From: an uncultured Candidatus Poseidoniales archaeon
Lineage (GTDB): Archaea > Thermoplasmatota > Poseidoniia > Poseidoniales > Thalassarchaeaceae
Assembly: GCA_963990035.1 (NCBI GenBank)
Contig: CAXDMJ010000004.1
Span: forward strand, 879-64,878
Length of the DNA: 64,000 bases
Direction: 5' to 3'
Made by a program: the position numbers and the translations under genes. Each line of letters begins with the position of its first letter. Positions within the stretch are counted from its first letter, which is position 1. Shown here one piece after another: positions 15,247 to 62,800 of the stretch. Below the pieces are notes generated by a model that was not told where the DNA came from, made no database searches, and worked only from the letters and a program-made list of their open reading frames with translations.

Positions 15247-18200
15247 TCAGTTAATACGTCGAAGATACTCTTCACCGTAGTAATGCCATTGTTCCATGGT
15301 CCAACCATCAGGCAAACCACCTGGAGGTAATGGGGCGACCATAGGAGGTGGTGGGGGAGAATTTTTAGAAGGCATTATGAGAGACTCATTCCCTTGATAA
15401 TGAGATTGAATAGAATTAGGGAAATCAGACACTTCAACTGGCGTATTTCTTCTTCTTATTACTACATTAACTAACAAAACAATGAATATAAGAGAAAAGA
15501 TACCTAATCCGAACAAGGAAACGACTTTCAAGTTATTAATCCCATTAGAATTAGCAGTATTCTCAATCGGTTCATCATCAATTACTATCACGGGTAAAGT
15601 CGCATAAACTTTGTACGTTTCATCAGTATATCGATCCATTCCATCATGATCTATAGCTCTAACTGTAAAAGTCATATAATCGCCACTTCCTAATCCTTCA
15701 CCACTAATATGGTTCACAATAAATGGACCTAATGTGTGGGAAATTCCAGAACTATGACAAATTCCAGTGACTGAATTACATATACTCCAAAATACACTAA
15801 TTTCAGATAATACTAATCCACCAACATTCTCAATAACTACTGAAGGATTAGTGTAATACTCAGTTGTATCAATAGATATGGTCAGATCTCCAAGTGAACC
15901 ATATTTCCATAGTAATGGTAGTTCATCAAATACATTTACCTGAATAATAGATGTTGATGATGCGCCATATCTATCTTCAGCAGTTATTGAAACGGTTTGG
16001 ATACCAGATTCTTGCCAAGACATAACTAGTACACCTGAAAGAGGATTCCATTGTGCTGCGCCTGAAACATCAGTGGTAACAACCGTCCAAATTTCATCGT
16101 CAGAATTATCTACATCAGTAATTCTTTCTAAAAGATTAAGATTTAAAACATCACCAGTTTGTAAGGTTATTTCTTCAATATCCTCTAAATTAATATCTGG
16201 AGCATCGTTTACATTTAAGATATGGAAAGTTACAATTGTATCTGAATATTTGACACCATCGCTCGCTCTAACAGTAATGTCTACTATTCCAAATAAATCA
16301 TCATCTAGAGATACTAAAGATAGTGAATGCCCATTCAGAGTTGCTTCAACAAGTGTTTCATCAGAAATCCCTAATAAAGATAGAGAAAGACCAGATACTG
16401 GAACTGGATTACCATTATTATCGGTATCAGAAAGGTAATCTGTGAAAGTAATGCTTCCATACCCACCCTCATCGAATGATTGAGTATTGATAGGTGACCA
16501 TCGAGGAGCTCCATTCTCTATTACGTTGAATAAAATAAGGCCAGAATTAATATCATCACCATCGTTAACATGGACATAAATTCCTTGAGGTAAAGGATTA
16601 CCATGACTGTCTCTTACAACTTGTGAGAATTTGACAATTATCTCGAGATTTAATGGGTCCCATGATATAAATTCTTCATCATCGCTAGTAATTTCAAGAA
16701 GTTGCAATGGAGTTTCAGCATCATTAATCAGGCCGATAATAGAAACGGATTCATCGGAATCCACCTTCACAGTAGGCATACCTGCATACTCATTATTACT
16801 ACTAGAATATATGATAGGAATGGCATTCTGGAGGAAAAATGCATCACTAGACTCAAGCCATTGACTACTCTGACCACCAGCATCTGTCCACATTACCCTG
16901 AGGTCATAAGGTCCTACTGCAGAATTTAATTCAGTATTAATGGAATATTGATACCTAGAGTTACCTCCATTACCAATAATTTCAGAACCATCTATCCAAG
17001 TATCATCCCACGAACCTGAACCGGATTCTGAATATTGTAAAGTGGGGTACATTGAATCCATTGTATCTACTAAATCATTAGCAATAGCACTTACTTCAAA
17101 TTGGATGATACTACCTCGATTTACATTTGGTGAAGAAACAGCAGTGGGCGTATTTGGAGTTGGAGGTAAATCATGCAATGCAGAGACATCAGCATAATTG
17201 TTACTTGCAATTCTATCGCCATCTAAATCACTCAATCTTGCACGGAATACTGAAGTTCCTGATGGTTGCATCTCCACTGAAGACGTATCGAAATTAACTG
17301 AGAAATCTTGAGTAGAACCTGGTGAAAGAGTGTTAATTGAGATTTCTCCTAAATATTGCTCTTCTAACCCATCTAAGTAGTAAATACTAATATCTCCTCC
17401 ATCTGAATATGAATCTACACCATTATTCTGAATAGTGGAGCTTAGAACAAGGTTATCTCCTTGAACAAAATCAGATGAACCCTCAATTATAAAATCTGAA
17501 ATGCCAATGTCAACTAATGGAGCCATGTCTAAATCAATTGCAGCATAGAAATTATTGTATGAGGTGTGTGGCCCATCCATTAGTGCTATAACTGGCCAAA
17601 AATTTTCATATTGAGTATTTCCATCAGCAGCACGAACTACACTTAGAGACTCATCCCAAGAAAGTTCAGAAGGAGTATTTGGGGTCAATACTATTTGCTC
17701 GAAAGCATTGTCATTCGTATTAAGTAACCAAGATCTCCAAACATGATGAGGTTTGTACCCATCATCATAATTTTCAGCTCCAGAGTGTTCAGTGACCGCT
17801 GCATATACATGAACAGATATTGAAGGAAGAGGCCCTAAATAAGTAACTGATAAGTCAGTTGTGACTGTCTCGCCAGATGAATCTAAAGAGGTTGAAAGTT
17901 CCATTGTAAAATCAGAAGATGATGGCGCCATGCAGCCCCCAGATGAATAATCACTATCATAGAAATTAGTACCTCCAGCACCAACTTTGTAACAAGAACC
18001 TGCTTGTTCATCAGCAAAAGAAAATGTAGGATAACCTGAAGATGCTGCCATGACATGATCTCTCCTTGTACCAGAACTTCCAATAGAGTCGGATGGCCAG
18101 CCTGTACCTGAACCTTCAAAGAAAGAAACATATGTGAAATCATCAGGATTAGAAGTTTTAAGATTATTAAGAGAAGGAGATGCACTACTCATGCAAGGAC

Positions 18201-18399
18201 CACACCAATGAGCACCTACATATTCACCAAAAACAGAGTGCCCCGGACTTGGTGCATAAAGTGGAGCAGCTTCCATCTCGAGTTCATCAAACTTGAAATC
18301 ATCTTCTTGAAAATCAACTAATCCAACTTGAGTCATCGTTAACATCAAAAATACTAGTGGCAAGGCGGACAGAGAAGATGACAACCTACTTCGTAGCAT
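15247..18399 (-). CDS. Giant surface protein 1: signal peptide, thioredoxin-like domain, Ig/cadherin-like repeats, C-terminal TM anchor, Pro-rich cytoplasmic tail
   Basis: Signal MLRSRLSSSLSALPLVFLMLTMT. HWCGPC at 18193-18207 followed by a GYPTF cis-Pro-loop-like motif. Cadherin-like NVNDAPDINL. TM VVSLFGLGIFSLIFIVLLVNVVI. Tail ..SPPPPPMVAPLPPGGLPDGWTMEQWHYYGEEYLRRIN. Confidence 0.7.
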   Translation of the reverse strand: MLRSRLSSSLSALPLVFLMLTMTQVGLVDFQEDDFKFDELEMEAAPLYAPSPGHSVFGEYVGAHWCGPCMSSASPSLNNLKTSNPDDFTYVSFFEGSGTGWPSDSIGSSGTRRDHVMAASSGYPTFSFADEQAGSCYKVGAGGTNFYDSDYSSGGCMAPSSSDFTMELSTSLDSSGETVTTDLSVTYLGPLPSISVHVYAAVTEHSGAENYDDGYKPHHVWRSWLLNTNDNAFEQIVLTPNTPSELSWDESLSVVRAADGNTQYENFWPVIALMDGPHTSYNNFYAAIDLDMAPLVDIGISDFIIEGSSDFVQGDNLVLSSTIQNNGVDSYSDGGDISIYYLDGLEEQYLGEISINTLSPGSTQDFSVNFDTSSVEMQPSGTSVFRARLSDLDGDRIASNNYADVSALHDLPPTPNTPTAVSSPNVNRGSIIQFEVSAIANDLVDTMDSMYPTLQYSESGSGSWDDTWIDGSEIIGNGGNSRYQYSINTELNSAVGPYDLRVMWTDAGGQSSQWLESSDAFFLQNAIPIIYSSSNNEYAGMPTVKVDSDESVSIIGLINDAETPLQLLEITSDDEEFISWDPLNLEIIVKFSQVVRDSHGNPLPQGIYVHVNDGDDINSGLILFNVIENGAPRWSPINTQSFDEGGYGSITFTDYLSDTDNNGNPVPVSGLSLSLLGISDETLVEATLNGHSLSLVSLDDDLFGIVDITVRASDGVKYSDTIVTFHILNVNDAPDINLEDIEEITLQTGDVLNLNLLERITDVDNSDDEIWTVVTTDVSGAAQWNPLSGVLVMSWQESGIQTVSITAEDRYGASSTSIIQVNVFDELPLLWKYGSLGDLTISIDTTEYYTNPSVVIENVGGLVLSEISVFWSICNSVTGICHSSGISHTLGPFIVNHISGEGLGSGDYMTFTVRAIDHDGMDRYTDETYKVYATLPVIVIDDEPIENTANSNGINNLKVVSLFGLGIFSLIFIVLLVNVVIRRRNTPVEVSDFPNSIQSHYQGNESLIMPSKNSPPPPPMVAPLPPGGLPDGWTMEQWHYYGEEYLRRIN

Positions 18400-27951: not shown

Positions 27952-28932
27952 ATGGTATCTGTTGGTATAATTGGCTTAGGAGCGTATGTCCCTCCTAATG
28001 AAATGAGCAATGAAGATTGGATGAAATATGTAGATACTAGCGATGAGTGGATTACTACAAAAACTGGTATGAAAAAAAGAAGAATTGCAGAATCAGACGT
28101 ATGTACATCAGATCTTGCTGTAGAAGCATGTAAAAAAGCCTTAGAAAATGCTGATTTACGCCCTGAAGATATTGACCTAATAATTCTGGCTACTTCTTCA
28201 CCGGATGTACCTCTTTCATCAACTGCTGGAATAATTCAACATAAATTAGGATGCGTAGAATGTGCTGCTTTTGATATAAATGCAGTTTGTGCAGGTTGGG
28301 TTCATGCACTAGATATAGGTGCAAGATTCGTAGGCACTGATGGGTATCAGAATGTACTAGTAGTAGGATCAGAGATATACTCACGGATACTTAATTGGAA
28401 TGATCGAGCTACATGTGTATTATTTGGAGATGGAGCTGGAGCTGCCGTACTATCAGAAGTGGAATCAGGCAAAGGAATTCTAGGAACTTGGCTAATGTCT
28501 GATGGATCAGGATCTTCAGTAATTGAGATTCCTGCAGGAGGTGTCAGAACACCATTTAATTCAGAGGAATTTCAAGAAGGACAGCAATATTTCCATATGG
28601 ATGGAAGGGCAGTGTGGGATTTCGCTATCGAAGCATTCCCCCAAGCAGTAAATAATGCACTTTTGAAAGTAGGAAAAGATATTCAAGATATTGATTTGAT
28701 AATACCTCATCAAGCAAATATAAACATAATTCAAACAGGTATGGAAAAACTAGGCTTAGATATGGATAAAACATTTACTAATTTACATAAGTATGGTAAT
28801 ACAGCAGGGGCAAGTGTACCAATTGCTATGTTCGAGGCGATGGAAAATGGACTAATCAAGGAAGGAGATTTAGTCGTAACCGCTGCATTCGGCGGAGGAC
28901 TATCTTGGGGAGCGAATGTAATTCAATTCTAA
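27952..28932 (+). CDS. fabH: 3-oxoacyl-ACP synthase III (KAS III) homologue
   Basis: Catalytic triad context: NAVCAGW (Cys), PHQANINI (His), GNTAGASVP (Asn). 326 aa. Confidence 0.8.
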   Translation: MVSVGIIGLGAYVPPNEMSNEDWMKYVDTSDEWITTKTGMKKRRIAESDVCTSDLAVEACKKALENADLRPEDIDLIILATSSPDVPLSSTAGIIQHKLGCVECAAFDINAVCAGWVHALDIGARFVGTDGYQNVLVVGSEIYSRILNWNDRATCVLFGDGAGAAVLSEVESGKGILGTWLMSDGSGSSVIEIPAGGVRTPFNSEEFQEGQQYFHMDGRAVWDFAIEAFPQAVNNALLKVGKDIQDIDLIIPHQANINIIQTGMEKLGLDMDKTFTNLHKYGNTAGASVPIAMFEAMENGLIKEGDLVVTAAFGGGLSWGANVIQF

Positions 28933-31900
28933 GAAAAATTATGATATTGAATCCATCCACCAGTTGCCGCATCATGCCTAAGAATAGAACCATCTAAATT
29001 TTGGCACCAAACTTGCCCTGTTTCATCAGACCAAACTTTCTGCCCATATTCGTTGACAGGAGTCCCCTCTGGAGGAAGAATCACATCTGGTTTAGGTGGA
29101 GTAGGTAATTCACTGAGTAATGCATCGATATGTGATGTATCCCTTACTTCATCAACCTCATTATCTTCTTGAATCTCATCTTCAGATGAATCATTATTTA
29201 TCTCAGGGGTAACTGATTTCATACCTTCATGAGGATAATCTACTTCAATAACGGGTTTATTATCATCAGGAGATTCTATTTCCTCAGTTTTACCTCTTCG
29301 AAGAGTAATTACTCCTAAATAACCCAATACTACTAGTGCTATTATGCCACCTAAAGTCGCTAATACGAATTGAAGATTTGTTTGAAAGTACTTGAAGTTA
29401 GGATGAGAATCAGATTGGTCACCTTTTCCATCACCATCGGAATCCAGCCATTCAGTTATATCCTTAGGGAAAATATCTTCTGAATCAATATAACCGTCAT
29501 TATCAGAATCTGGTAACAAAGGATTTGTACCCATTTCATTTTCTTTACTATCAGACCATCCATCACCATCATCATCAGTATCTGCGTTATTCCCAATACC
29601 ATCGCCATCGGTATCAATCCATTCAGTCGCATCTAAAACATTCCAATCAACATTATCGGCGTAACCATCACCATCATCATCTGTATCTATCAGATTACAT
29701 TCAAAATCTGAATCAGTATCTAGAGGTATTGATTGTGAAATATTAGGGTCAGTTTCACATATTAATTCCATAGAATCTAACCAGCCATCGCCATCATCAT
29801 CTGTATCTATATTATCACCTAATCCATCTGAATCTGTATCAATTGATTCAGTAGAATCATTTGGAAAAGCATCATACTGATCAAGAACTAAATCACCATC
29901 ATCATCATTATCTTCTCCAATGTCTTGACAACCATCACCATCAATATCAGTAGAAGCATTACTTATCCATCCGATAAAACCGGGATTACAGTCATCGACA
30001 GAATCTAATCGGCCATCACCATCATCATCAATATCGTCAGCATCGATAATTCTATCACCATCTGAATCTAATAAACAATCATCAACTGAAGTTGCTCCTT
30101 CAATAATAGTAATATAATTAATCGGACAAGCCCAAAGGAATGAACTTCCTGGGGAATCAGTATAGAAATCAAATGGATTTAATTGCTGAAATAATTGAGC
30201 TTCATCTGAAACAAAATATCCAACATCTGCATCTAAGCATGATATTGCTCCTGGACTAGGTTGATATGTTCCAACAGAACAAGGTATCTGAGTTACAGAC
30301 ATTGTTGTATCAGTGAAATATCCCTCATCAGCAGATATACAAAATGTTTGCATTATATTTGGTTGATACATTCCTGCAGAGCATTCGACATATTCAGATT
30401 GACCAGGATTCAAAACAAAAGTCCCTTCTGGAGAATCAATACAGGACTCTGAACCCTCTGATGGCTGATAAGTTCCCTCTGAGCACATTCTTTGAGAAGA
30501 TGAACCCTCTGATTCAACAAAATGACCTGAATCCGCTAGGATACATGAATCTGAACTTGTTGAAGCAATTGAAGGATTATATGTTCCAATTAAACATGGA
30601 GTTTGTTGATTTGAAGCAATTGATGAAACATAGTACCCTTCGTCTGCTTCATAACAACCTGATTGAGCAGTTTGAGGTTGATAAGTTCCAATTTCACAAG
30701 GGTTTTGTATAAAAGACCCAATGATATGAACGAAGTATCCTGAATCTGCGTAAATACACGTAGCTTGTCCAGTATTTGGTTGATAAGTACCTAATTGACA
30801 TATTAATTGAGATGGAGAAGCAAGAACATCAACATAATGTCCTTCATCGGCATCTAAACAATCAAGATTGCTTGATGAACTAGAATTTGGATTATAAGTT
30901 CCAAAATCACAAGGGAAAGCAGAAGGTGAACCAAGAACATCAACAAAGTATCCTGGTTCGGCATCTAAGCAACTTGAACTAGATGGAGATGGTTGATATG
31001 TACCTAGAATACAAGGCACCTGAAATGAAGAACCATTAGTCGCAACAAAATGTCCTAAAGAGGCCTCAATACATCTAAATTGACCAGTATTTGGTTGATA
31101 ACTTCCTACGTCACAAGGTGTTTGAGAGATTGATTGAGGCAGAGATGAATAATTCCCTGGACTTGCGTCAATACAAGATACACGTCCGGAAAATGGTTGA
31201 TAATTACCAGGTGTACAAGGTATTTGACTTGTAGATGCTGGCATTGATACATAATTCCCAGGTGAGGAAAGGATACAAGAGATTTCAGCAGAACTCGGTT
31301 GGTATGATCCATTGGAACATGGAATTTGTTCAGGAGAACCAGCACTGGACGTATAATATCCAGGATTAGTATCAATGCAAGAGGTTTGAGCGGTCTGATT
31401 TTGATAAGTACCAGCCAAACAGGTTTGTTGACTAGTAGCTCCAGTAGAATCCACATAATGACCAAGAGATGCAGGAGTTTGTATGATAGAAGCAAAGGAA
31501 GAACTGTAGTAACCCAGAGATGTAGTCAAACAACTTGATTCGCCTGTTAAACCCTGATAAGTCCCTGGTGAACATGGAGTTTGCGTAGTTGCACCAGAAC
31601 TAGCAACAAAATAACCTTGAGATGCGCTAAAACAAGAGGAACTAACTTCATTAGGCTGATAACTACCAATCGAACATAATTCCTGATTCACCGATATTTC
31701 TGCATCGATACTATTCAATAAATCACCTAATAATAATGAATCAACAATATTGAAATAACTGAGATTCATATAATATAGGCCGGTAGAATTGACTCTTTCA
31801 ACAACAATATAGATGTTACGAGCAAATGAACTAGATGATGAATTTGTATTAACTGACTCGTTAGACCCTGAATTATTACTGTAATCGATAATACTCATAG

Positions 31901-45203: not shown

Positions 45204-46244
45204 GTGTCCGTCACCTCCGACAATGATTTTTTCTGGTCGGAATTAGAAAATAGTGATTTGATATTTTTATCTATTTACATCATTGTAGCTTTGATACCTT
45301 TCATAAATTCATATAGACAAAAAACTAGTGTAGCTCTAGCAATGATTCTATCATTACTACTTGTAATGTTTGTTCGATTTAGTACTGATTTAGCAAATCT
45401 AGGATTTAACGAGATAGAGTTTTTTGCAATGATCCCAGTTATCTCTGACGAACCAGATCAAATATATCGATTTGTAACTGCAGCTTGGTTGCATGCAGAT
45501 TGGTTACACGTATTATCAAACATTTTAGTCATAGGATTAGTAGGTGTACCACTAGAACAAAGGTTAGGGAGTAAGAGATGGTTGTTAGTTTATTCACTAG
45601 GATTTTTTGGAGGAAATATTGCTTGGGTCATGACCCATCCAGAGTCATATAATCCTGCAATAGGGGCGAGTGGAGCAGCATTTGGATTACTTGGTGCATA
45701 TATGGCATGTTGGCCAAATGATGAGGTGGAGTTTCCATTATTATTCTTGATTAGGGCGTGGCCAATATGGATAATTGTATTTGTAAGATTAGGTTTAGAA
45801 GTTTATCAAATTTATTCAATTCAGGAAGGTACCTCTGGAGACACCAATATTGCACATATGGCACATATTGGAGGATTCATTCTAGCTTACCTATTAGCAA
45901 GAATTATCGCTAGAGGAGCACCCAGTTCATTGGAAGCAGAGGACTCAGGACCAACCGCTGCATCTCATAATGACTCAGTTAGAATAATTGCTAAGAAAAA
46001 CATGGGAGATTTAACTAATGACCCATGGGAATTAGCTAACAAACCACTCAAAGGAAATGCAGCTAGAATACTTACTCAACTTAAGTTACAAGGTGATGAA
46101 TTAGAAACAAGACAAGCATGGTTAGAAGAATTATCCGAACATACAATCTGTCCAATATGCAGTGGAGAAATAGAATTAAATGAAAATGAGAGTGTGTATC
46201 GACTTGTATGCACAATTAATGGTGAACACTTATTTTGGCCTTAA
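45204..46244 (+). CDS. Rhomboid-family intramembrane serine protease with a C-terminal Cys-containing cytosolic extension
   Basis: WLHADWLHVLSNILV (H-x4-H-x3-N), catalytic GASGAAFGLLGA, and His in AHMAHIGGF. C-terminal ..ICPICSGEIELNE.. Confidence 0.8.
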   Translation: MSVTSDNDFFWSELENSDLIFLSIYIIVALIPFINSYRQKTSVALAMILSLLLVMFVRFSTDLANLGFNEIEFFAMIPVISDEPDQIYRFVTAAWLHADWLHVLSNILVIGLVGVPLEQRLGSKRWLLVYSLGFFGGNIAWVMTHPESYNPAIGASGAAFGLLGAYMACWPNDEVEFPLLFLIRAWPIWIIVFVRLGLEVYQIYSIQEGTSGDTNIAHMAHIGGFILAYLLARIIARGAPSSLEAEDSGPTAASHNDSVRIIAKKNMGDLTNDPWELANKPLKGNAARILTQLKLQGDELETRQAWLEELSEHTICPICSGEIELNENESVYRLVCTINGEHLFWP

Positions 46245-46313: not shown

Positions 46314-49300
46314 ATGACAGGAGCATCAAAAACAGTAGTTCCAATGTTAGTTGTAGCATTGATGCTAATACTAGATTTATCAGCTGGAGTTTCAGCTATG
46401 ATTCCAGAAGAAGACAACATTAACGATTTGGAAAACCATATTTCAGAAATTCCTGAATTGATGTGTCAAGGAGAAGTTTGTCCAGAAAAATTCCTTGGAG
46501 TAGGATTCCCTCCGTGGGATGCTAGAACTGCTGTAGAAAGTCCTTATTGGTGGGTTGATTTTTCAACCGATCAAGATTCTAATGGCATGGAAGATAGTTT
46601 ACAATATATGATTGATGGTCAAAAAGAATCTCATTCAGCAACGGCAATACTTGGCGATGATGGTAGAATGACTACTGCAATAATAGTGGGCTATTCATGG
46701 CACCCCGGAGAGACTGATTTGGAAAATTTAAAACAGATATTAATTGAACACGGATGGGAGGAAGATGGTTCCTGGTTTTTCCCAGTAGAGTACATTGATT
46801 CAGTAGTAATTGACCATGTCCCTGTAAGTTCATTAATTCAGATATGGCAATTAGATGGAGTGGTTATGATTGAAGAACAAGATAAGATTGTATCATACCT
46901 AAGTGTGGCTACTAGAGGTTCAAAAGTTAGAAATTCAGATGTTTATGATGAAACTTTAAGAGATTTTGGTTATGATGGATCTGGAGTGGTTATAGCTGTT
47001 TTAGATTCAGGAGTAGATAATGAACATTTTTCATTAGATGATTTTTCAGATGAAAATAATGATAACGAAAATCAGCCAGATGATTTAAGTGACCCGAAAT
47101 GGGTAGGTGGATGCGATGCCACCTCATGGAACTCACAAGAATGTAATGATGGAGAATTTGACCCAGATGATGGGAATGGACATGGAACTCATGTAGCAGG
47201 TATTGCATTAGGAACCGGAGATGAAAGAAGAGTAAACCAAGGATACGCTCCTGGATCTTACCTTGTAGATGTCAAAGTGATGACTGACTCAGGAGGGAGT
47301 GCAGGTGGAGATGAAGGACCTATAATCAAAGGACTACAATGGGTTCTTCAAAATGTCAATACTGATTGGGGGAATAATGACTCAAGTGAAGGAATCGATG
47401 TCATGACAATGTCATTTGGTAGTGGAAGTTCACCTGTTGGAGAAAATGATCAAGGAGATGATGGAAATAACTCTGCAGCGAGATTAGTTAATGATTGCGC
47501 GGAGGCAGGGATTGTCCCTATTGCCGCTATAGGTAATGATGGAACTAATCGAGTTACATCTGTAGGAGCAGCTGATGCGGCAATAACAGTGGGAGCAATT
47601 GATGACCAAAACACAATACAACGTAATGACGATGAAATTGCTGATTACTCAAACTCTGGACCAAGGGTAGATGATAATGATGAAAATAAATGGGATGAAT
47701 TGAAACCAGATGTTGTCGCACCAGGTTCAGGTATCACATCTGCACAACATGCTGCATCATCATCTACAATTCCTGGACAAGATTCTACTGGATTAGCAGA
47801 TGATGGATACGTATCAATGGATGGGACAAGTATGTCCACACCAGCAGTAGCCGGATTAGTTGCAGTTATTTTACAAATTGATGACGAACTCGAACCGCAA
47901 GAAGTTAAAGATCTTCTTCGTAATAATTCACAAGTAAAAGGTTCTCCATCGATGCCTTCAGTATCAGACATATGGAATGAGGATTATGGTTTTGGAATAA
48001 TTGATGGAAATCTAATCCTTCAGGCACTACTTGGAGATGACAATGGGGGGGGTGATGGTCCAGGTAACGATACAGGTGGCGGTGATCCACCAGTAGATGG
48101 AACTGGAAACTGGGCTGTAATTGAAAAACCTAGTGGACTATGGCTTATTGAAGGTCAAAGTTACAGCGTTCGTGGACATATTACGGAAGCGGGAGAAGAA
48201 AATGGAAGTACTGAAGAAGTCCAAGTTCGAGTCACTTACAAATATAGACCTACAGGGGGAGGTCCTCTTTCTACTGGAGTTTTAGTTGACTGGCATCAAG
48301 CATTTGGTACAGTAAATTGGACTACTAACTTTGATTTACCAAATTTTGAAGAAGAGGAAGATATTGACGCGGAAACTCTTCAGATAGAGGTGAAATCTAG
48401 GAATGAATTCGAGCAATGGAGTAATACTACTAAAAAAACACATAATATTGGTGAAATATCTCTAGAAGTTAATTCGCCAAGTAGTCAAGATATTGTAAGT
48501 GGTAATATTGAAATTAGTGGTTTATTAAAGACAGTAGAGGGGGCACAATTACAATGGAGATTAGGGACAGATGATTGGAAAAATAGGACTTACTATTCTG
48601 GAAGTGGGAATGAAGAAATAGAATGGTCAATGCCATGGGATACAAGAGATAATGATGATGGAATACAAAGATTTTCTGTCAGATTCGTAAGTGGAGCAGG
48701 GGTTGCTTCTGAAGAAATTCGTACCAGTATAGAGATTGATAATAACCCTCCCTCTCCTGATTTAATGTTTAGAACAGGGATATCAGTACAAGAATATGGT
48801 ATTCCAATAACTGAGACCTATGTCAATACATTTTTGGAAGCTAAAATACAAATTAGAAATATTGGAGATTTATCTGCAGATGAACTTTCAATATACCTAT
48901 TAGAAGATGGTTTCAGAAGAGATGAAATCATCATTCAGAGCATAGGTAGTGGAGATATCATAGAGATATCATTATCTTGGAATCCATCAACAGTTGGAGA
49001 TATACAATTAACTATCTCACTGGACCCACTCGATGAAATACAGGAGAATAATGAATCTGATAATGATATTTCAATTATTTTCCCGGTTTTACAGAGACCT
49101 CAGGGGGTAGATTTGGCATTCAGAGATGGCGCTGTTAAGACTGAACCATCAATACCTAGACCTAACGAACAATTCCTAATAACAGGAAGAATTGACAACT
49201 TAGGATCTAGTAATGCAATGAATGTAGGCGCTACACTTTGGTTTAAGAATGAACTTGGATGGATGGAAATTACCTCGACGACTATTTCACTTGTTGTTGG

Positions 49301-51098
49301 TCAAGGAGCGAGTTTAGTTTCATTCGCACATATTTCTAATGAGGTAGGTCCAATAGAAATGAAGATAACAATACAAGGAGATACTTTGAGTGACTTAGAC
49401 TGGAGTAATAATGAAATAATTACAACCATATTAGTTGATCAATCATCACTTACAGGTGCTAGGAAAATCTCTTTTAGTTATGGTGAAGAACCGGTGAAGA
49501 TTTTAGATCTAAATGGTGAAGGATTAGTCATCACTAGTAAAGATGGAGGATTATCATTATATCGTTTAAATTCTAATCTCGCATTAATTCCTTGCTCAAA
49601 TTCGCTTGAAGTAAAATGGTCAGGAGATTTCACATCATGGAGCACTGGAGACGGATATGCCCATATTGCTTGGACTAGAAGATATATAGATAATCAAGGT
49701 TATTTCCAACAAACATTGAGCTATTCAAGAATAGATGCTTCATGCGAAATGACACCTATACAGGACTTAATGCAACCTATATCATTATCAGATGGTAAAT
49801 ACTATGGCATAGACATAGACGTACAAGGAACTGAAGTAATAATAGGGGGTTATCATAGAGATATATCGACTGGAGGAACATATGATGATTTAACAAATGT
49901 TTTCTTACTAACTTCAGATTTCCCTACATCATCCTCCGATTGGACATTTACTCCAAATATCATTGCCGATATTGAAATTAACATGAATGAAGCAGACCCG
50001 GTAGTTGTTGAATTTGGAGAGGAACATACACATGTCCTATATCAATCGAATAGAGATGACATTACTGGGGATGAAAGACTAGGTTTATGGTATTCCCATG
50101 GCTCTAGTAAGCAATCATCTTGGGCATATAAAAAATCAATAGGAGACGAGGCAGGGATGCACCAGATGTCTGTAAAAACAATAGATGAAAAAGATAATAT
50201 TTTCATAGTTTGGAAGGAAGGAATTAATTCAGAATCAAAGTTAATTGCTATGATTACTGATTCGACTTTGACTCCTAAAGATAATCTCAGTATAGAAGTA
50301 AATGCGAAAGGATTAGGGAACATACAAATGACCGAAACTCATCTAGGTATACAGATATTCTATGACTTTGTAGGACCTACTGGAACACAAATACAATATG
50401 GAATGATGAGTCCTACAGAAGATAAACAATGGATCGGACTCTCAGACAGAATAACTTCAGGAAAAAATCATCTTTCATCAACAGATAGAAGTCCATTAAG
50501 TGACCAAACTCTTCTAATGACTTGGAATGAATTATCTGGTTGGGAGATTAGAGCATTAATTGACGACAGTGACCCCGATAAGGGTGAATTGAATTTACTA
50601 GATGGATTCAGAATATATTTAGGACTTGATGAACAAAACTTTGGAATTTTAATGTCAGGTATTGCGATAACTGTACTACTTCTTTGCCTACTAGTTCTAA
50701 CTACAATGTCATTTAATGCAGTCAAATGGGTAGGAAGAAAAAGAAGAAAAGTAGCATATGGGAATATTATTTTGGAAGAAAATGTAGTGGATATAGTTGA
50801 ACCAACTGATATTGAAATAAAATCATCTGAAATCGAACTAATCGATAGCGACCAAAATGACGGAGCAATTTCTAGAAAAGAAAGAAGAAATGAAAGGCAA
50901 ATCGAAGAATTAGCAACAGATGAAAATAGAGTAAATACACCAGTACTTAGTATGCCACCACCAATAATTAATGGAATGGCTGAATCACAACAAATTAATC
51001 GTCCAGTTGTTTGCCCAGATTGTTCGTCTAGATTTGAAATATCTGTAGATTTAAAAATGATTAAATGTCCTATTTGTAACATTAGAATAGACCTATAG
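46314..51098 (+). CDS. Giant surface protein 3: subtilisin-like (S8) serine protease, Ig/CARDB-like domains, TM anchor, cytoplasmic tail ending in a zinc ribbon
   Basis: Signal VVPMLVVALMLILDLSAGVSA. Catalytic D231 (VIAVLDSGVD), H290 (GHGTHVAGIA) and S506 (DGTSMSTPAVAG). CARDB-like NIGDLSADELSIYL and NLGSSNAMNVGATLWF. TM GIAITVLLLCLLVLTTM. Tail ends CPDC-x14-CPIC. Confidence 0.8.
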   Translation: MTGASKTVVPMLVVALMLILDLSAGVSAMIPEEDNINDLENHISEIPELMCQGEVCPEKFLGVGFPPWDARTAVESPYWWVDFSTDQDSNGMEDSLQYMIDGQKESHSATAILGDDGRMTTAIIVGYSWHPGETDLENLKQILIEHGWEEDGSWFFPVEYIDSVVIDHVPVSSLIQIWQLDGVVMIEEQDKIVSYLSVATRGSKVRNSDVYDETLRDFGYDGSGVVIAVLDSGVDNEHFSLDDFSDENNDNENQPDDLSDPKWVGGCDATSWNSQECNDGEFDPDDGNGHGTHVAGIALGTGDERRVNQGYAPGSYLVDVKVMTDSGGSAGGDEGPIIKGLQWVLQNVNTDWGNNDSSEGIDVMTMSFGSGSSPVGENDQGDDGNNSAARLVNDCAEAGIVPIAAIGNDGTNRVTSVGAADAAITVGAIDDQNTIQRNDDEIADYSNSGPRVDDNDENKWDELKPDVVAPGSGITSAQHAASSSTIPGQDSTGLADDGYVSMDGTSMSTPAVAGLVAVILQIDDELEPQEVKDLLRNNSQVKGSPSMPSVSDIWNEDYGFGIIDGNLILQALLGDDNGGGDGPGNDTGGGDPPVDGTGNWAVIEKPSGLWLIEGQSYSVRGHITEAGEENGSTEEVQVRVTYKYRPTGGGPLSTGVLVDWHQAFGTVNWTTNFDLPNFEEEEDIDAETLQIEVKSRNEFEQWSNTTKKTHNIGEISLEVNSPSSQDIVSGNIEISGLLKTVEGAQLQWRLGTDDWKNRTYYSGSGNEEIEWSMPWDTRDNDDGIQRFSVRFVSGAGVASEEIRTSIEIDNNPPSPDLMFRTGISVQEYGIPITETYVNTFLEAKIQIRNIGDLSADELSIYLLEDGFRRDEIIIQSIGSGDIIEISLSWNPSTVGDIQLTISLDPLDEIQENNESDNDISIIFPVLQRPQGVDLAFRDGAVKTEPSIPRPNEQFLITGRIDNLGSSNAMNVGATLWFKNELGWMEITSTTISLVVGQGASLVSFAHISNEVGPIEMKITIQGDTLSDLDWSNNEIITTILVDQSSLTGARKISFSYGEEPVKILDLNGEGLVITSKDGGLSLYRLNSNLALIPCSNSLEVKWSGDFTSWSTGDGYAHIAWTRRYIDNQGYFQQTLSYSRIDASCEMTPIQDLMQPISLSDGKYYGIDIDVQGTEVIIGGYHRDISTGGTYDDLTNVFLLTSDFPTSSSDWTFTPNIIADIEINMNEADPVVVEFGEEHTHVLYQSNRDDITGDERLGLWYSHGSSKQSSWAYKKSIGDEAGMHQMSVKTIDEKDNIFIVWKEGINSESKLIAMITDSTLTPKDNLSIEVNAKGLGNIQMTETHLGIQIFYDFVGPTGTQIQYGMMSPTEDKQWIGLSDRITSGKNHLSSTDRSPLSDQTLLMTWNELSGWEIRALIDDSDPDKGELNLLDGFRIYLGLDEQNFGILMSGIAITVLLLCLLVLTTMSFNAVKWVGRKRRKVAYGNIILEENVVDIVEPTDIEIKSSEIELIDSDQNDGAISRKERRNERQIEELATDENRVNTPVLSMPPPIINGMAESQQINRPVVCPDCSSRFEISVDLKMIKCPICNIRIDL

Positions 51099-58713: not shown

Positions 58714-59781
58714 TCATTCCTCATGCTCATTATCAGTTGTGGCAGATGGGGGGAACAGATGAGTTTGTCGCCTAAATAGTTTGAAAAATATCATTCCAAA
58801 TAGGGGCCATGAGAAAGGCATCACAAAAATCCCAACAATCGACAAAGCAAAGATTTCTAACAAAGAGAAACCATCTTTAGTACAACAATCATCTATTTCT
58901 TCAACAAGTATACAGTTATGAGAATAATTATCGAAATCAACTAAATAATAATTCGACCAATTCTTACCTGTGACCCAGAAAAGAGAACTTTCTAAATCAT
59001 AGGCGATACCATTTAGTTCGCGAGAATTATTATTTTCATACTCAGAACGAATCTCTGAAAAATCATATTCAACACAAACTTGACCCGTCAATTGGCTAAT
59101 ACCAATTATTCTATCTTCAAGCCATATATTAGCGTAAATAAGATCTGAATCAAATGGACATTCGAGCTCATTTAGGCGATTAATAGTTGAGCCATTATAT
59201 TTGATAATCAATGAAGATTCTGCTATAGAAAAATTATTTGAATACAAATTAGATAATTCGTAAGAACCATCTGAAAACCATAATTTATTATTATTGGTAT
59301 TACAAATACCCCAACCTTCTCCTTCAAAAGTGAAATTACCAATTAATTCTAAAGATGAATGATTATATATAAATCCAATATTTTCTTTCCAAGTCAGTTG
59401 AATTAATGACTGATTAACCATCGCTAATCCCTCTGCAAAATATTCATCTGGTAATGTGACCATTTCCTCTACTTCTCCACTAGAGAGGTTGACAATACGT
59501 AAACTAGATTCTCCATATAATCCAGTACTCTCATATAATTGGCCATCATAAATTAATAATCCTTGAGTAAATGCTGAAGAATCATGAGGGATTATCTCGA
59601 TGATTTTGGGGGAGATAATATTAATCTCATCATAATCAGAAGAGGTTAATGAGTCAGAAGAAACAAGGGCTGAAAATGATGAAAAAACTATGAGGAATAC
59701 CATGAGGAAAATGGATTTACGACATCCCCCCTGCTTAATCATGTACGAACGATGCTCCATCGATATTAAAATAGGTCTCAA
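58714..59781 (-). CDS. Glutaminyl-peptide cyclotransferase (beta-propeller plant/bacterial type), membrane-anchored
   Basis: PHDSSAFTQGLLIYDGQLYESTGLYGESSLRIVNLSSGEV and YFAEGLAMVNQSLIQLTWKE match the glutamine cyclotransferase family. N-terminal signal/anchor and C-terminal TM segments. The start may be the ATG at 59742. Confidence 0.7.
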   Translation of the reverse strand: MRPILISMEHRSYMIKQGGCRKSIFLMVFLIVFSSFSALVSSDSLTSSDYDEINIISPKIIEIIPHDSSAFTQGLLIYDGQLYESTGLYGESSLRIVNLSSGEVEEMVTLPDEYFAEGLAMVNQSLIQLTWKENIGFIYNHSSLELIGNFTFEGEGWGICNTNNNKLWFSDGSYELSNLYSNNFSIAESSLIIKYNGSTINRLNELECPFDSDLIYANIWLEDRIIGISQLTGQVCVEYDFSEIRSEYENNNSRELNGIAYDLESSLFWVTGKNWSNYYLVDFDNYSHNCILVEEIDDCCTKDGFSLLEIFALSIVGIFVMPFSWPLFGMIFFKLFRRQTHLFPPSATTDNEHEE

Positions 59782-59809
59782 ACGGGCATTAACTTGTAAT
59801 AAACAGGAT

Positions 59810-62800
59810 GTGACACGATTGTCTAAACTTAATCATAGAAACAACACTACTACTCCATTGTTTCTTGTTTCAGTAATGTTACTAGCTAGTATTTCTCCAA
59901 TCGCGCTAGCAAATTCTTCATCAAGTAATAATACCACTAATATATCAGCAGGTAATCTTGAAGACTACGACCCATTAACAGAAGGAAATAGGTATCTGTT
60001 CACTAATGATACAGCACCTATTTATTCTGCAACTAGTCATTTAAAGAAGCAATGGATAGAGGAAGGTTATCCAAACCTAGTACTCCCATTCTCTCAATCA
60101 TATTCGAACTTGAAGACATCTACACGTAATTGTACGAATGCATGGAGTCAAGGAGATACAGATACTGTTCCAACTGCTAGCGGTAGTATTGATGCGACCG
60201 TACAAAAAATTTCATCTAATGCTGCAATATTTGTAGAAAATGGAAAAATTCTATCTGCAACTACTCTTAATGACATTACATCAACCTTTGAGTCAACAAT
60301 TTATCCAACTGACACGACTTATTTTGGTTCAATGCCTGATGTCGATAATAATTGCCAACTAGAAATAATAATTTTAGGAATAGACGGAGCAGGAGCTACT
60401 GGAGGTTACTTTGCACCAGGAATCTCATCTCAAAGAGAATCAGTATTTATTGATGTAGACGATATGAGTTGGAGAAATACAATACTAGCACATGAACTCC
60501 AACATCTCCTCCATAACGCTAGAGACCCTTATGAAAATCTATGGATAGATGAAGGAGCAGCAGATATGGCCGCTTACCTCTGCTTTGGAGTAACCACCAC
60601 ACTCTCAGGCCATGCAAATGAGTGGTCACAAAATTCGAACATGAGTCTTAGATGGTGGAATCAAAGGATTGCTGACTATGGAGCAGGTTTCATGTTCTTG
60701 ATGTATTTGGCAGACAAGTTAGGAGGAGGAAGTGCAATATCAAGCCTGGTAGCAGATACAGCAACAGGTGGTGCTGGAATAGAAAATCTAGCTGCTAATC
60801 CACAGCCCGGTTCAATCTCAATAGGTACTACGATGAGCGAAATTTACGCAAATTTCAGCGCAGCAGTCACATTAGATAGTCAGCAAGGAGCATTTGGATT
60901 CTCTAATCTAGACCTGTCAGAAGCCTGTACTGCGGCCTTCATTTGTAAAGTGCAAAAATCCGGATATAATGATCAATGGGCGAATGATTGGAGCAGTGAT
61001 AGTGATGCAGTTGAAGGATGGGGTATGAGATCATACAAATTTTCACAAGGTTCAGGTGCACCATTAAATCTGATGGTTTCCCCTACACAGTTTGGGTTTG
61101 AAGGAATTGTAATGTCGAAGGAATCATCGACTGGAACATGGTCTATGAGTCAATTAAGAATTGACCCTGCAAGTGGAGCAGGAACTGGTCTTGTTTACGG
61201 ATTTGGAAATGAAACTGATGAGGTTTGGTTGATTACTTGGTATGAATCACTAGTAGATGACTGTGATTATAATTTTGCCAGTTGTGGAATTACCACTGGT
61301 TCTTATCCTGAAGCAGCAATTACAGTTCAAGCAGGATTAATTACAGACCCAGCAGAAGTAGAAATTTCTGCAATAGAAAATTTTGATAGAGATGGAGACA
61401 ACTTAGATGACAGTAGTAGGATTGACTTAGAAGTCACTTCAAACGCTTTCTTTGAGATACTAGAAGTTGAAGTAAATGCATACGTAAATAATACAGTTGT
61501 AGATACTTTAACTTTTGATATAACAGCAGGTAATAGCATTGCTACGGAAAAAAGTATCTGGTTTACGCCACCTGAAGGAGGAGATTGGACATATGGTGTG
61601 AAAATAACAGACGTCACAGGAATTGTCGTAGATCAAGCATTCGCTTTACCAGTTAATGTTGCTAATATGGAACCCGTGGCATCCGGTTCTATGGCTACAA
61701 ACATCACCCAGACATGGCTTCCAATTGCAATGTACGGCTCTGGTTATGACACATGGGGTTTCAGTCAAGTAAATGGAACATTTAGCCATAATGAAACTCC
61801 TATTGCTTATTTTTGGGATTTAGGAGATAATACATCTTCAGGTTTAAAAAACCCAGTTCATTCATATCTTTATTCTGGAATATACACAGTTGTACTCACT
61901 GTTAGAGACAAAGGAGGTTATTTCTCAGAACCACAAACTTGGACGATAATTGTAGATGATACGTCAGTTCCAGTTCCAGTAATCTCAGTTGATGGAATTG
62001 TACAAGATTCAGAACTAACACTGATGACTAATCAGAGAGTTCAATTTTCGGCATTAGCAAGTCAGGATAACGTACCAATAAATGAAATGACATTTACTTG
62101 GGATTGGGGAGATGGGCAGATTGAGCAAGGTAAAGGATTGGCTGAATTAGGCCATGCATGGGTTGATGGAAGTTCTGATGGTATAATTTATACACTAACT
62201 TTGACTATCGATGATGGAAACCAATTCATCGATTATTCGATATATATCAGAGTACTAAATCGCGTCCCTGAACAGATTTTCCAACAAAATTTACAAACGT
62301 TTACCTTAACCCCTCTTGAAATGCCTTTAGTATTTGAAGATCAAGATGGGTTCATAGTTGAATATCGTTGGATTTTTGAAGAAGGAGTTAATACTGATGG
62401 TTCTGGAATGACGCTCACATCTGATTTTACAATAACTGAATCAGTAGAGATGAATCCGATAGTTGGTTGGAAAGATCCTGGGATGAAGAATGTCACAATA
62501 GAAGTTACTGATGATGATGGGAATACATCTATTGCTAACTTACAAATTCTTGTAATTAATCAAAGACCTGTCGCAATTTTCTCTAGACCTAGCGATGGTG
62601 ATATTGATACAGAATATGTATTTGAAAGTTTGTCATTTGACCCTGATGGAGATAGTTCCTCTATGCAGATAATTTGGAATATTTCTGATTTCGAAGAACC
62701 TATTTACAATGTCACTTCAGTCTATCACACATTCACTAAACCAGGATTATATCGAATTAGTTTAATCGTAATTGATGACAAGGGCCAATCGTCTGCTGAG

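What the first reader, a model, noticed from the sequence alone, without database searches (positions are those of the whole stretch)
28932..29300. Four giant type-I surface proteins share one cytoplasmic-tail blueprint: TM, acidic linker, polyproline patch, small terminal module
Seen directly: each of the four largest ORFs ends with a single TM helix followed by a 64-123 aa tail. The ORFs are 15247-18399, 28929-33737, 46314-51098 and 59810-63943.

Tail coordinates and sequences:
- 15250-15456: ..NSPPPPPMVAPLPPGGLPDGWTMEQWHYYGEEYLRRIN
- 28932-29300: ..acidic stretch..LPTPPKPDVILPPEGTPVNEYGQKVWSDETGQVWCQNLDGSILRHDAATGGWIQYHNFS
- 50751-51098: ..acidic stretch..LSMPPPIINGM...CPDCSSRFEISVDLKMIKCPIC
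- 63749-63943: ..QHNPPPQPKYLTIEERRSKESGYIRPIRTRRK

The ectodomains are unrelated: thioredoxin/cadherin-like, RCC1/ephrin-like/TSP3, S8 protease, and HExxH/PKD. The tails nevertheless follow the same order. Two of them end in Trp/Tyr-rich beta-hairpin-like motifs reminiscent of polyproline-binding WW/GYF modules. That resemblance is unverified.

Inference: the tails may form a common intracellular docking, sorting or outside-in signalling system for surface enzymes and adhesins. The Pro patches and aromatic modules could interact in trans.
Basis: partly seen in the sequence, partly recalled or inferred. Interest (0 to 1): 0.6.

Follow-up and report, generated by a model that had tools for sequence, protein, structure and literature searches.

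The report
Conserved cytoplasmic tails, archaeal surface proteins
Four giant surface proteins of a Marine Group II ocean archaeon end inside the cell in strongly conserved tails (floppy acidic tether, proline-rich stretch, small end-piece); the four end-pieces are unrelated, and only one is an undescribed tag shared by many surface proteins, which points to an unknown docking partner inside the cell.

Summary
All four ORFs have a signal peptide, a large ectodomain, one TM helix, a basic stop-transfer cluster and a 64-127 aa tail at the stated coordinates. The window comes from a Poseidoniales (Marine Group II) MAG.

- Charge bias and signal peptides place the tails in the cytoplasm.
- Proline patches are 4-10 times denser in tails than in ectodomains or soluble proteins, and exceed composition-matched shuffles.
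- Every tail is conserved in orthologues. Tails 1, 3 and 4 are conserved order-wide and tail 2 mostly family-wide.

The four tails are not one system, because the end-pieces are four different things:
1. A Pro segment plus an aromatic amphipathic helix, PPLPxxGLPxGWTMEQWxxYGxxW. It is found only in Poseidoniales, at 1-12 copies per genome, on unrelated ectodomains.
2. A four-stranded beta-meander most like a single PQQ-type propeller blade. It is not a WW or GYF domain.
3. A CxxC-x15-CxxC zinc ribbon.
4. A near-invariant linear motif, PPPQPKYL...ESGYIRPIRTRRK.

Only 5 of 18-24 long tails in this genome carry a Pro patch.

My best reading is that these are flexible tethers presenting docking handles to unknown cytoplasmic partners. 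No Pfam or NCBIfam model matches tails 1, 2 and 4, and I found no paper describing them.

The parts
15247..18399 (-). P0001, a 1050-aa type-I surface protein with weak cadherin-like/Big_9 hits. It carries GW tail tag copy 1 of 3 in this genome.
   Evidence: orthologue in G003 (L126) at 32% identity
15457..15531 (-). P0001 TM helix (residues 957-981), followed by the RRR stop-transfer cluster
   Evidence: hydropathy; charge bias
15358..15456 (-). P0001 tether (residues 982-1014). Sequence and length vary among orthologues.
   Evidence: tail length 70-167 aa in the GW set
15250..15354 (-). GW tail tag: PPPPMVAPLPPGGLPDGWTMEQWHYYGEEYLRRIN. It is a Pro segment plus a conserved amphipathic aromatic helix.
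   Evidence: alignments A3 and A4; 151/151 Poseidoniales genomes; 0 of 237 other Thermoplasmatota; AF2 helix at residues 35-49 with pLDDT about 80 over the last 30 aa
28929..33737 (-). P0002, a 1602-aa type-I surface protein with RCC1 propeller, Ephrin_rec_like repeats and TSP3 repeats
29301..29369 (-). P0002 TM helix (residues 1457-1479), followed by RRGK
29109..29300 (-). P0002 acidic tether (residues 1480-1543)
   Evidence: tail length 90-201 aa among orthologues; AF2 pLDDT 55 at its distal end
29070..29108 (-). P0002 Pro patch LPTPPKPDVILPP. The distal P (of 'LPP') is invariant in orthologues.
   Evidence: A2; Pro patch kept in 21/29 orthologues
28932..29054 (-). P0002 terminal beta-module NEYGQKVWSDETGQVWCQNLDGSILRHDAATGGWIQYHNFS, a four-stranded meander
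   Evidence: AF2 pLDDT about 90, strands 27-30, 36-39, 45-49 and 54-58; Foldseek best hits are propeller blades, none significant; PQQ-type propeller designs via profile search
46314..51098 (+). P0003, a 1594-aa type-I subtilase (Peptidase_S8 plus CARDB)
50640..50714 (+). P0003 TM helix (residues 1443-1467), followed by KWVGRKRRK
50769..50852 (+). P0003 conserved acidic block ILEENVVDIVEPTDIEI... (consensus VMLEEDVVDVIDExDI)
50937..50966 (+). P0003 Pro patch TPVLSMPPPI. Orthologues have LPPLP-type runs here.
   Evidence: 27/30 orthologues
51012..51077 (+). P0003 C-terminal zinc ribbon CPDC-x14-CPIC
   Evidence: sequence; conserved in about 1600-aa orthologues in 76/101 genomes; weak Pfam zinc-ribbon hits below cut-off
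59690..63943 (+). P0004, a 1417-aa type-I HExxH/PKD protein. The true start is probably downstream, near 59810.
63686..63748 (+). P0004 TM helix (residues 1333-1353)
63749..63940 (+). P0004 tail, 64 aa with fixed length. It contains GGLxGMDQH, NPPPQPKYL (63851-63877) and the basic end ESGYIRPIRTRRK (63902-63940).
   Evidence: 100/101 genomes, single copy, 44-93% identity over most or all of the tail; alignment

Best explanation
The four tails are real cytoplasmic extensions of membrane-anchored surface enzymes and adhesins of a Marine Group II archaeon.

They share a design, not an ancestry. Each has a basic stop-transfer cluster, then an acidic and mostly disordered tether. The tether length drifts freely in three of the four families. 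A proline-rich stiff segment follows, and then a small, strongly conserved terminal element.

The terminal elements are four different devices:
(1) The 'GW tag', PP[LIV]PxxGLPxGW[TS]M[ED]QWxxYGxx[WY][LIW]. It is a Pro segment leading into an amphipathic helix whose conserved face is Q/W-Y/G-W/L.
(2) A four-stranded Trp-bearing beta-meander resembling one propeller blade.
(3) A four-Cys zinc ribbon.
(4) A fixed-length linear motif with an invariant PPPQP(K/R)YL and an Arg-rich end.

What is shown: conservation, cytoplasmic orientation, Pro enrichment, and the modular spread of the GW tag over unrelated ectodomains.

What is inferred: each end-piece is a docking handle held on a flexible tether. 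Through it, cytoplasmic or membrane-associated partners bind, cluster, position or turn over the surface protein. Because the GW tag is shared by 1-12 proteins per genome, those proteins would address one common partner. The membrane-proximal Pro residues belong to the folded handles (used in cis). The more distant Pro/Glu runs act as spacers.
For: - Anatomy and coordinates.
- Orientation: signal peptides plus K+R of 2.1-3.0 after the TM against 0.5-1.4 before it, in 117 orthologues. A Zn-ribbon sits in tail 3.
- Conservation of the GW tag: 151/151 Poseidoniales genomes and 22/22 genera. It is absent from 8 genomes of the sister family in the class (probably Marine Group III) and about 229 other Thermoplasmatota.
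- Conservation of tail 2: 64/151 genomes.
- Conservation of tail 3: 76/101 genomes.
- Conservation of tail 4: 100/101 genomes at 44-93% identity. That is at least as conserved as the whole protein, which is 42% identical to its G003 orthologue.
- Modularity: 10 GW proteins in the complete genome G003 carry S8, PKD/CARDB, propeller, TSP3 or unknown ectodomains. They resemble each other only in the last 80-100 aa.
- Tether behaviour: tail lengths range 70-167, 90-201 and 125-165 aa, with PE-repeat expansions, against a fixed 64-65 aa for tail 4.
- Structure: AF2 gives pLDDT about 90 for the tail-2 meander and about 80 for the GW helix plus the preceding Pro segment. Upstream residues score about 50.
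- Pro enrichment. The Pro patch is kept in 28/29, 21/29, 27/30 and 29/29 orthologues.
- Precedent: bacterial GltJ uses a cytoplasmic ZnR-flexible linker-GYF region as a docking switch (PMC11135422).
Against: - No partner has been identified.
- No gene recurs next to GW-tagged genes of different families.
- The organism is uncultured, so topology and binding are untested.
- The AF2 model of the GW tag is only moderate (mean pLDDT 70), and I could not inspect its coordinates. Cis packing of the Pro segment is therefore inferred from confidence values alone.
- Most long tails in this genome (13-19 of 18-24) lack a Pro patch, so the 'design' is a frequent theme, not a rule.
- Self-association would explain the same data without any separate partner.
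Confidence: 0.6

Rival explanations
1. Self-association. The terminal elements are oligomerisation devices. Single blades from several chains would assemble into a propeller-like ring, and GW helices would pair through their conserved aromatic/Gly face. Surface proteins would then be clustered laterally from the inside without any separate partner.
For: The tail-2 module matches single PQQ-type blades, including designed proteins that assemble from repeated blades. The GW helix has a conserved i/i+3/i+4/i+7 face with an invariant Gly, typical of close helix packing. No candidate partner gene was found nearby.
Against: Individual blade matches are not significant on their own (per-stretch E of 60 or more; E of 0.23 or more). 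No multimer modelling was available. A lone blade can equally be a peptide-binding surface.
Confidence: 0.2
2. The Pro patches of some tails are ligands for WW/GYF-like aromatic modules of other tails. Surface proteins would be cross-linked in trans.
For: PPLP, a classic WW class II ligand motif, is nearly invariant in the GW tag. The terminal modules are Trp/Tyr-rich. Pro patches are enriched in tails.
Against: There is no WW or GYF homology in the tails or in 21 genomes. Tail 1 is helical and tail 2 is a four-stranded blade-like sheet. The conserved Pro residues are contiguous with the modules and predicted to be ordered with them. Pro runs further upstream vary in sequence and length, as spacers do.
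Confidence: 0.12
3. Turnover handles. The C-terminal elements are recognition tags for membrane-bound proteolysis or quality control, for example by the LonB encoded directly downstream of P0001. They would set the lifetime of surface proteins.
For: The P0001-LonB adjacency is conserved between the two main families. C-terminal tags on flexible tails are typical AAA+ protease substrates (general knowledge).
Against: The adjacency holds for one GW family only. The other GW genes have unrelated neighbours. Degrons rarely need a 30-aa, order-wide invariant aromatic motif.
Confidence: 0.06
4. No specific function. The tails are compositionally biased leftovers, and the shared order is a coincidence of low-complexity sequence.
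For: The linker parts are low-complexity and vary in length. Most long tails in the genome lack the full pattern.
Against: The terminal elements are near-invariant across an order. Enrichment exceeds composition-matched shuffles.
Confidence: 0.02

Closest known systems
Bacterial cytoplasmic ZnR-flexible linker-GYF modules on single-pass membrane proteins (Myxococcus GltJ; PMC11135422)
   Same: Small cytoplasmic modules, including a zinc ribbon, are joined by a flexible Pro-containing linker to a single TM helix. They serve as docking and switch sites for cytoplasmic partners.
   Different: In GltJ the region is N-terminal, and it pairs a ZnR with a true GYF domain. Here the modules are C-terminal, sit on type-I proteins with giant ectodomains, occur singly, and none is a GYF domain.
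Prokaryotic C-terminal sorting tags (PGF-CTERM/archaeosortase A, PEP-CTERM/exosortase, LPXTG/sortase, GlyGly-CTERM/rhombosortase)
   Same: A short, lineage-specific C-terminal signature is shared by many otherwise unrelated surface proteins of one proteome, as with the GW tag.
   Different: Those tags consist of a motif immediately before the TM helix plus a few basic residues, and the tag is removed. The GW tag lies 35-130 aa beyond the TM helix on the cytoplasmic side, with no signature before the helix. The same genome also has two ordinary PGF-CTERM-like ends.
WW domain (PF00397) and GYF domain (PF02213/PF14237)
   Same: They are small and Trp/Tyr-rich. LPxGW at the start of the GW tag mimics the first strand of a WW domain. 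The tail-2 module has W...W-x-P.
   Different: There are no HMM matches. The GW tag is helical. Tail 2 has four strands, a W-W spacing of 25 residues, and no WW domain among the 50 best Foldseek hits.
Single blade of PQQ-type beta-propellers (e.g. PDB 3hxj and the Cake/Scone designs derived from such repeats)
   Same: Shares the four-stranded antiparallel meander and the motif G-x-V-[WY]-x-x-N-P-D-G-[ST]...W.
   Different: There is only one blade, it is cytoplasmic, and it sits at the extreme C-terminus. The per-blade similarity is not statistically significant.
PP-fold and Trp-cage miniproteins (structural analogy only, from general knowledge)
   Same: A polyproline segment and a short aromatic amphipathic helix lie within about 30 residues.
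   Different: There is no homology. Packing of the Pro segment onto the helix is inferred from pLDDT only and was not seen in coordinates.
Cytoplasmic tails of eukaryotic type-I adhesion receptors (integrin beta, cadherin)
   Same: A giant ectodomain, a single TM helix and a short conserved tail with linear motifs that recruit intracellular adaptors.
   Different: There is no sequence relationship. No adaptor or cytoskeletal partner is known in these archaea.

Membership tests
WW domain (PF00397) | Match to the family HMM | tested here: not met
   No Pfam hit for tails 1 and 2 at E<=10. None among 26 tail-2 orthologues. No hit in six-frame scans of 21 genomes; that search's controls were prokaryotes and uninformative.
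WW domain (PF00397) | Three-stranded sheet with two Trp 20-22 residues apart and W-x-x-P | tested here: not met
   The AF2 model has four strands. The W29-W55 spacing is 25 residues, followed by W-x-P. No WW domain appears in the 50 best Foldseek PDB hits. The tail-1 module is a helix.
GYF / GYF_2 (PF02213, PF14237) | Match to the family HMM | tested here: not met
   PF14237 is absent from 21 related genomes, while the control rang weakly, below the family cut-off, in Caulobacter.
PQQ-like beta-propeller repeat | Blade-length repeat with the G-x-[LV]-[YW]-A-x-[ND]-x-x-[DT]G signature, arranged as 6-8 tandem blades | tested here: inconclusive
   The profile of tail 2 hits PQQ-type propellers with summed E of 1.7e-7 to 5.6e-6, but each stretch is insignificant. 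Foldseek best hits are blades with E of 0.23 or more. Only one blade is present, so the tandem-array feature is not met.
Zinc ribbon | Two CxxC knuckles 10-30 residues apart on two beta-hairpins | tested here: met
   CPDC-x14-CPIC is conserved in 30 orthologues. Pfam zinc-ribbon models match only weakly, at E of 0.02 or more and below cut-off. No structure was predicted.
PGF-CTERM / archaeosortase-type sorting signal | Signature motif directly before the last TM helix, followed by a short basic C-terminus | tested here: not met
   The tails are 64-127 aa long and there is no PGF-type motif before the TM. No NCBIfam CTERM model matches.
ZnR-linker-GYF switch module (GltJ type) | N-terminal cytoplasmic ZnR and GYF domains joined by a flexible linker | tested here: not met
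   Tail 3 has a linker plus a ZnR only, at the C-terminus, with no GYF. The description of the family comes from PMC11135422.
PP-fold / Trp-cage-like mini-fold | Polyproline-II segment packed against an aromatic helix | not testable with these tools
   AF2 gives pLDDT about 79 for VAPLPPGGLP and about 85 for the helix, but coordinates cannot be inspected. Foldseek returned nothing.

The most novel reading that the evidence does not exclude
Poseidoniales run a proteome-wide cytoplasmic 'tail code'. A handful of recurrent end-pieces on the tails of type-I surface proteins would couple much of the cell-surface proteome to an intracellular scaffold or sorting machine. The end-pieces are the GW tag, Trp-rich beta modules, zinc ribbons, the acidic-hydrophobic DTSF[IL]DD[IL]L ends and Gln/Tyr-rich repeats. 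This would be an adaptor-based inside-outside linkage of a kind so far known mainly from eukaryotic receptors.
Probability: 0.25. Interest if true: 0.8.

Novelty: new variant of a known kind. Interest (0 to 1): 0.58.

Why it matters
Marine Group II archaea are among the most abundant heterotrophs of the surface ocean and have never been cultured. [quoted passage not shown]

Long, order-wide conserved cytoplasmic tails on these proteins are unexpected in a prokaryote, where C-terminal anchors usually end after a few basic residues. One tag is shared by up to a dozen unrelated proteins per genome. Together these features imply an unknown intracellular partner that organises, retains or regulates the surface proteome.

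The GW tag is about 30 residues long, nearly invariant, and has no Pfam or NCBIfam model. That makes it a concrete bait for finding the partner and a marker for annotating the Poseidoniales surface proteome.

Tried and rejected
- Pfam and NCBIfam scans of the isolated tails and of 26 tail-2 orthologues found nothing except weak zinc-ribbon hits for tail 3.
- Foldseek against the PDB gave no significant hit for tail 2 and none at all for the GW tag.
- WW and GYF_2 family scans of 21 genomes gave no hit.
- The search for homologous proteins restricted to the tail-1 region returned almost only orthologues, all named 'hypothetical protein'. It did not widen the family.
- The global profile search gave 649 clusters, mostly C-terminal fragments. 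The two multi-stretch hits were unrelated repeats, one MBD-like and one SGLPHGF.
- The GW tag was not found in phage records or viral contigs.
- Neighbourhood comparison of 13 GW loci found no shared neighbour across families.
- A local HMM of the tail-2 module did not pick up the other Trp-rich beta-like tails of G003, so these are not demonstrably one family.
- N-glycosylation sequon density was tried as a topology proxy and was uninformative.
- Literature searches for MGII plus cytoplasmic tails found nothing relevant.
Full report
**Source and setting.** The window is contig C4:879-64878 of a 1.41-Mb, 87-contig MAG. Earlier notes on this genome and named database hits such as 'Candidatus Thalassarchaeum sp.' place it in Marine Group II (order Poseidoniales). 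Its family is probably Thalassarchaeaceae (MGIIb). GC content is about 37%.

**Observation.**
- Pfam finds RCC1, Ephrin_rec_like and TSP3 in P0002, Peptidase_S8 and CARDB in P0003, and PKD in P0004, which also has a HELQH motif. P0001 gives only weak cadherin-like or Big_9 hits.
- Each protein has an N-terminal hydrophobic signal, one strong C-terminal hydrophobic helix, a basic cluster and a tail.

**Refutation test 1: topology.**
- With an N-terminal signal peptide and a single further TM helix, the tail must be cytoplasmic unless the positive-inside rule is violated.
- In 117 orthologous tails, the 15 residues after the helix hold on average 2.1-3.0 K+R. The 15 residues before it hold 0.5-1.4.
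- Tail 3 ends in a four-Cys zinc ribbon, a typically intracellular device.
- Sequon density was uninformative.
- Conclusion: the orientation is N-out/C-in. This is predicted, not measured.

**Refutation test 2: proline patches versus composition.** A patch is defined as at least 3 Pro in 6 residues.
- In the own genome, tails of 40 aa or more have 3.2 patches per 1000 aa. Ectodomains have 0.77 and soluble proteins 0.89.
- Shuffling within tails gives 3.6±1.6 patches against 8 observed (p=0.0085).
- I rebuilt the complete single-contig relative G003 (51% GC) from fetched regions for an independent test. There the figures are 8.6 against 0.83 and 1.32, and 0 of 1000 shuffles reach the observed 48.
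- The enrichment is therefore real. The pattern is not universal: only 5 of 24 long tails in this genome have a patch (5 of 18 under stricter type-I criteria). Four of those five are the window's proteins.
- The clustering reflects conserved core synteny. The tail-2, tail-3 and tail-4 genes lie at the same relative spacing in other genera of the family (positions).

**Refutation test 3: conservation among orthologues.** All four tails are conserved.

*Tail 1.*
- A profile of the three copies in this genome hits 151 of 151 Poseidoniales genomes in 22 of 22 genera. Hits almost always lie at the C-terminal end of 800-1800-aa frames.
- It hits 0 of 8 genomes of the sister family in the class (probably MGIII) and 0 of about 229 other Thermoplasmatota.
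- Copy number is 1-8 (mostly 3-4) in the window's own family and 5-12 in the other main family.
- Consensus from 34 sequences: PP[LIV]PxxGLPxGW[TS]M[ED]QWxxYGxx[WY][LIW]xQ, with P, G, L, P, G, W, Q, W and G invariant.

*Tail 2.*
- The last 40 residues, NE[HY]GQxVWxDxxGxV[WY]xQNPDGSxLx[HF]xxxTGxWxP, are conserved in 1600-1800-aa orthologues across the family. Hits elsewhere in the order are weak.

*Tail 3.*
- Conserved in about 1600-aa subtilase orthologues in 76 of 101 genomes.
- The conserved parts are an acidic block (VMLEEDVVDVIDExDI), an RRERRxxR patch, a Pro-rich run and the ribbon LN[RK]PVxCPxCxxRFEVxxxLKxxxCP[IV]C.

*Tail 4.*
- Found in 100 of 101 genomes as a single copy, at 44-93% identity over most or all of its 64-65 residues.
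- GGLPGMDQHxPPPQP(K/R)YL and ESGY[IV]RP[IV]RTRR[RK] are almost invariant in the 30 family-level orthologues aligned.
- The whole protein is only 42% identical between this genome and G003. The tail is therefore at least as constrained as the catalytic ectodomain.

*Pro patch retention.* The patch is kept in 28/29, 21/29, 27/30 and 29/29 orthologues.

**What the end-pieces are.**
- *GW tag.* AlphaFold2 on 26-sequence alignments predicts an alpha-helix, MEQWHYYGEEYLRRI. The preceding VAPLPPGGLP segment is also fairly confident (pLDDT about 79-85), while the upstream tether is not (about 50). The conserved helix positions (Q22/W23, Y26/G27, W30/L31 in A4 numbering) fall on one face. This is how a packing or binding surface behaves.
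- *Tail-2 module.* It is predicted with pLDDT about 90 as a four-stranded antiparallel meander. The adjacent ILPPEGTP segment is again ordered.
- *Structural matches for tail 2.* Foldseek finds no significant PDB match. The best matches are single beta-propeller blades. A profile search of PDB sequences independently picks PQQ-type propellers and designs derived from them, through the shared G-x-V-[WY]-x-x-NPDG[ST] motif. Each blade match alone is insignificant.
- *WW and GYF.* Neither module matches these families. LPxGW does mimic the first strand of a WW domain, but the rest is a helix.
- *Tail 3.* It is an ordinary small zinc ribbon. At least eight other membrane proteins of this genome also end in one.
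- *Tail 4.* It is a linear motif with no detectable fold assignment.

**Modularity of the GW tag.**
- In G003, ten proteins of 377-1812 aa carry the tag. Their ectodomains include an S8 subtilase, PKD/CARDB, a beta-propeller, TSP3 repeats and several with no Pfam match.
- Between families, similarity is confined to the last 80-100 residues.
- The three copies in this genome each have an orthologue there.
- A profile search of 1.84 billion representative proteins finds only 649 clusters. The module is essentially always at the C-terminus. The only odd hits are unrelated repeats.
- The tag is absent from phage and viral collections.
- It has no Pfam or NCBIfam model, and its bearers are annotated 'hypothetical protein'.

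**Tether behaviour.**
- In tails 1-3 the region between the stop-transfer cluster and the end-piece varies from 70 to 200 aa among orthologues. It contains expandable PE/PEPEP or AP runs.
- This is the signature of an entropic or PPII spacer, not of a specific ligand.
- The prolines that are conserved are those contiguous with the end-pieces: PPLP..GLP in tail 1, one invariant P in tail 2, LPPLN in tail 3 and PPPQP in tail 4.

**Mechanism.**
- Best reading (confidence 0.6): the tails are flexible tethers that present small docking handles to cytoplasmic partners. The GW tag would address a common partner for 1-12 surface proteins.
- The closest experimentally understood analogue is the cytoplasmic ZnR-linker-GYF region of Myxococcus GltJ. 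It docks AglZ, MglA and MglB and acts as a switch. Its authors note that such modules are widespread on bacterial membrane proteins (PMC11135422).
- Self-association (clustering) is the main rival.
- A degron role linked to the adjacent, syntenically conserved LonB is a minor alternative.
- No partner gene could be found by neighbourhood analysis.

**Wider pattern.** The G000 and G003 censuses show other recurrent tail endings on giant type-I proteins:
- acidic-hydrophobic C-termini (…DTSF[IL]DD[IL]L);
- Gln/Tyr-rich repeats (GY[DP]ExTAxxYAxQYY);
- short Trp hairpin-like motifs (GWxWDxxxxxWxxDP);
- several divergent Trp-rich beta-like ends.

They suggest a broader 'tail code'. I could not show that the beta-like ends form one family.

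**Relation to earlier notes of this scan.** At least seven earlier follow-ups on other MGII genomes describe the same GW tag and reach similar conclusions. I treated them as leads. The distribution, modularity and non-WW status were re-derived here. New in this report:
- the blade-like assignment of the tail-2 module;
- the order-wide near-invariance of tail 4;
- the two-genome Pro-patch statistics;
- the finding that the four tails of this window are four distinct devices.

**Verdict.** It is not one system, and the modules are not WW or GYF domains. I could find no description of this in the literature. I rate it a new variant of a known kind, namely docking or sorting modules on the tails of single-pass membrane proteins.

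Noticed in passing
window 13132-15180 (-): An archaeal membrane-bound LonB protease lies directly downstream of P0001 on the same strand. The adjacency is conserved in the distant relative G003 (1563359-1565437 next to the P0001 orthologue). This may be an operon.
   Followed up: partly
window 45204-46244 (+): A rhomboid-like membrane protein (GASGA...H motifs) has a C-terminal Cys-rich end, ICPICSGEIELNENESVYRLVCTINGEH. It sits immediately upstream of the subtilase P0003, which also ends in a zinc ribbon.
   Followed up: no
G000 C47:7011-8822 and C31:12834-14366 (outside the window): Two proteins end in PGF-CTERM-like signals (…SVPGFPALFATIALLGAALIGRRRED and …SGLPGFGMISAITMIAFAAFARRE). The organism therefore seems to use archaeosortase-type anchoring alongside the long-tailed type-I anchors.
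   Followed up: no
G000 C2:23014-31605 (2863 aa) and G003 339926-348283 (2785 aa): Giant type-I proteins end in a shared acidic-hydrophobic C-terminus (…IDTSFIDDIL and …IDTSFLDDLL). Similar endings (…DLDDLDV, …LLDDFDL) occur on other tails, so this may be a second recurrent tail tag.
   Followed up: partly
G000 C8:40886-47353 (2155 aa); G003 592171-598851 and 979711-983271: These tails carry Gln/Tyr-rich repeats of the form GY[DP]ExTAxxYAxQYY. They recur in different giant proteins.
   Followed up: no
G000 C1:41651-45853 and C10:30407-31507: Two tails end in a short Trp motif, GWxWDxxxxxWxxDP (EGWIWDDESNDWIEDP and PGWLWDPIEKEWVADP). It may be a minimal Trp hairpin.
   Followed up: no
G003 1919927-1925215 (1762 aa): This tail holds two degenerate PEGW[TS] units (IPEGWTAEAYNEWL and MPEGWSGVQWNDF). 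It looks like a diverged double version of the GW tag.
   Followed up: no
loci L014, L023, L026 (GW-tail orthologues): Tether length changes through expansions of PEPEPE or PEPMPE repeats between close relatives. This indicates ongoing repeat slippage in the tails.
   Followed up: no
window 59690-59810: The longest frame of P0004 starts at an ATG that overlaps the end of the convergent gene 58714-59781 by 92 nt. It also puts about 50 residues before the signal peptide.
   Followed up: no
G000 C46:9570-9770: A second copy of the P0004 tail, 91% identical, lies on a 121-aa frame on another contig of the same MAG. It is probably strain-level redundancy in the assembly.
   Followed up: no
G003 1712772-1717651: The G003 orthologue of the subtilase P0003 is split into two overlapping frames of 929 and 743 aa. 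This could be a frameshift, a sequencing error or masked bases.
   Followed up: no
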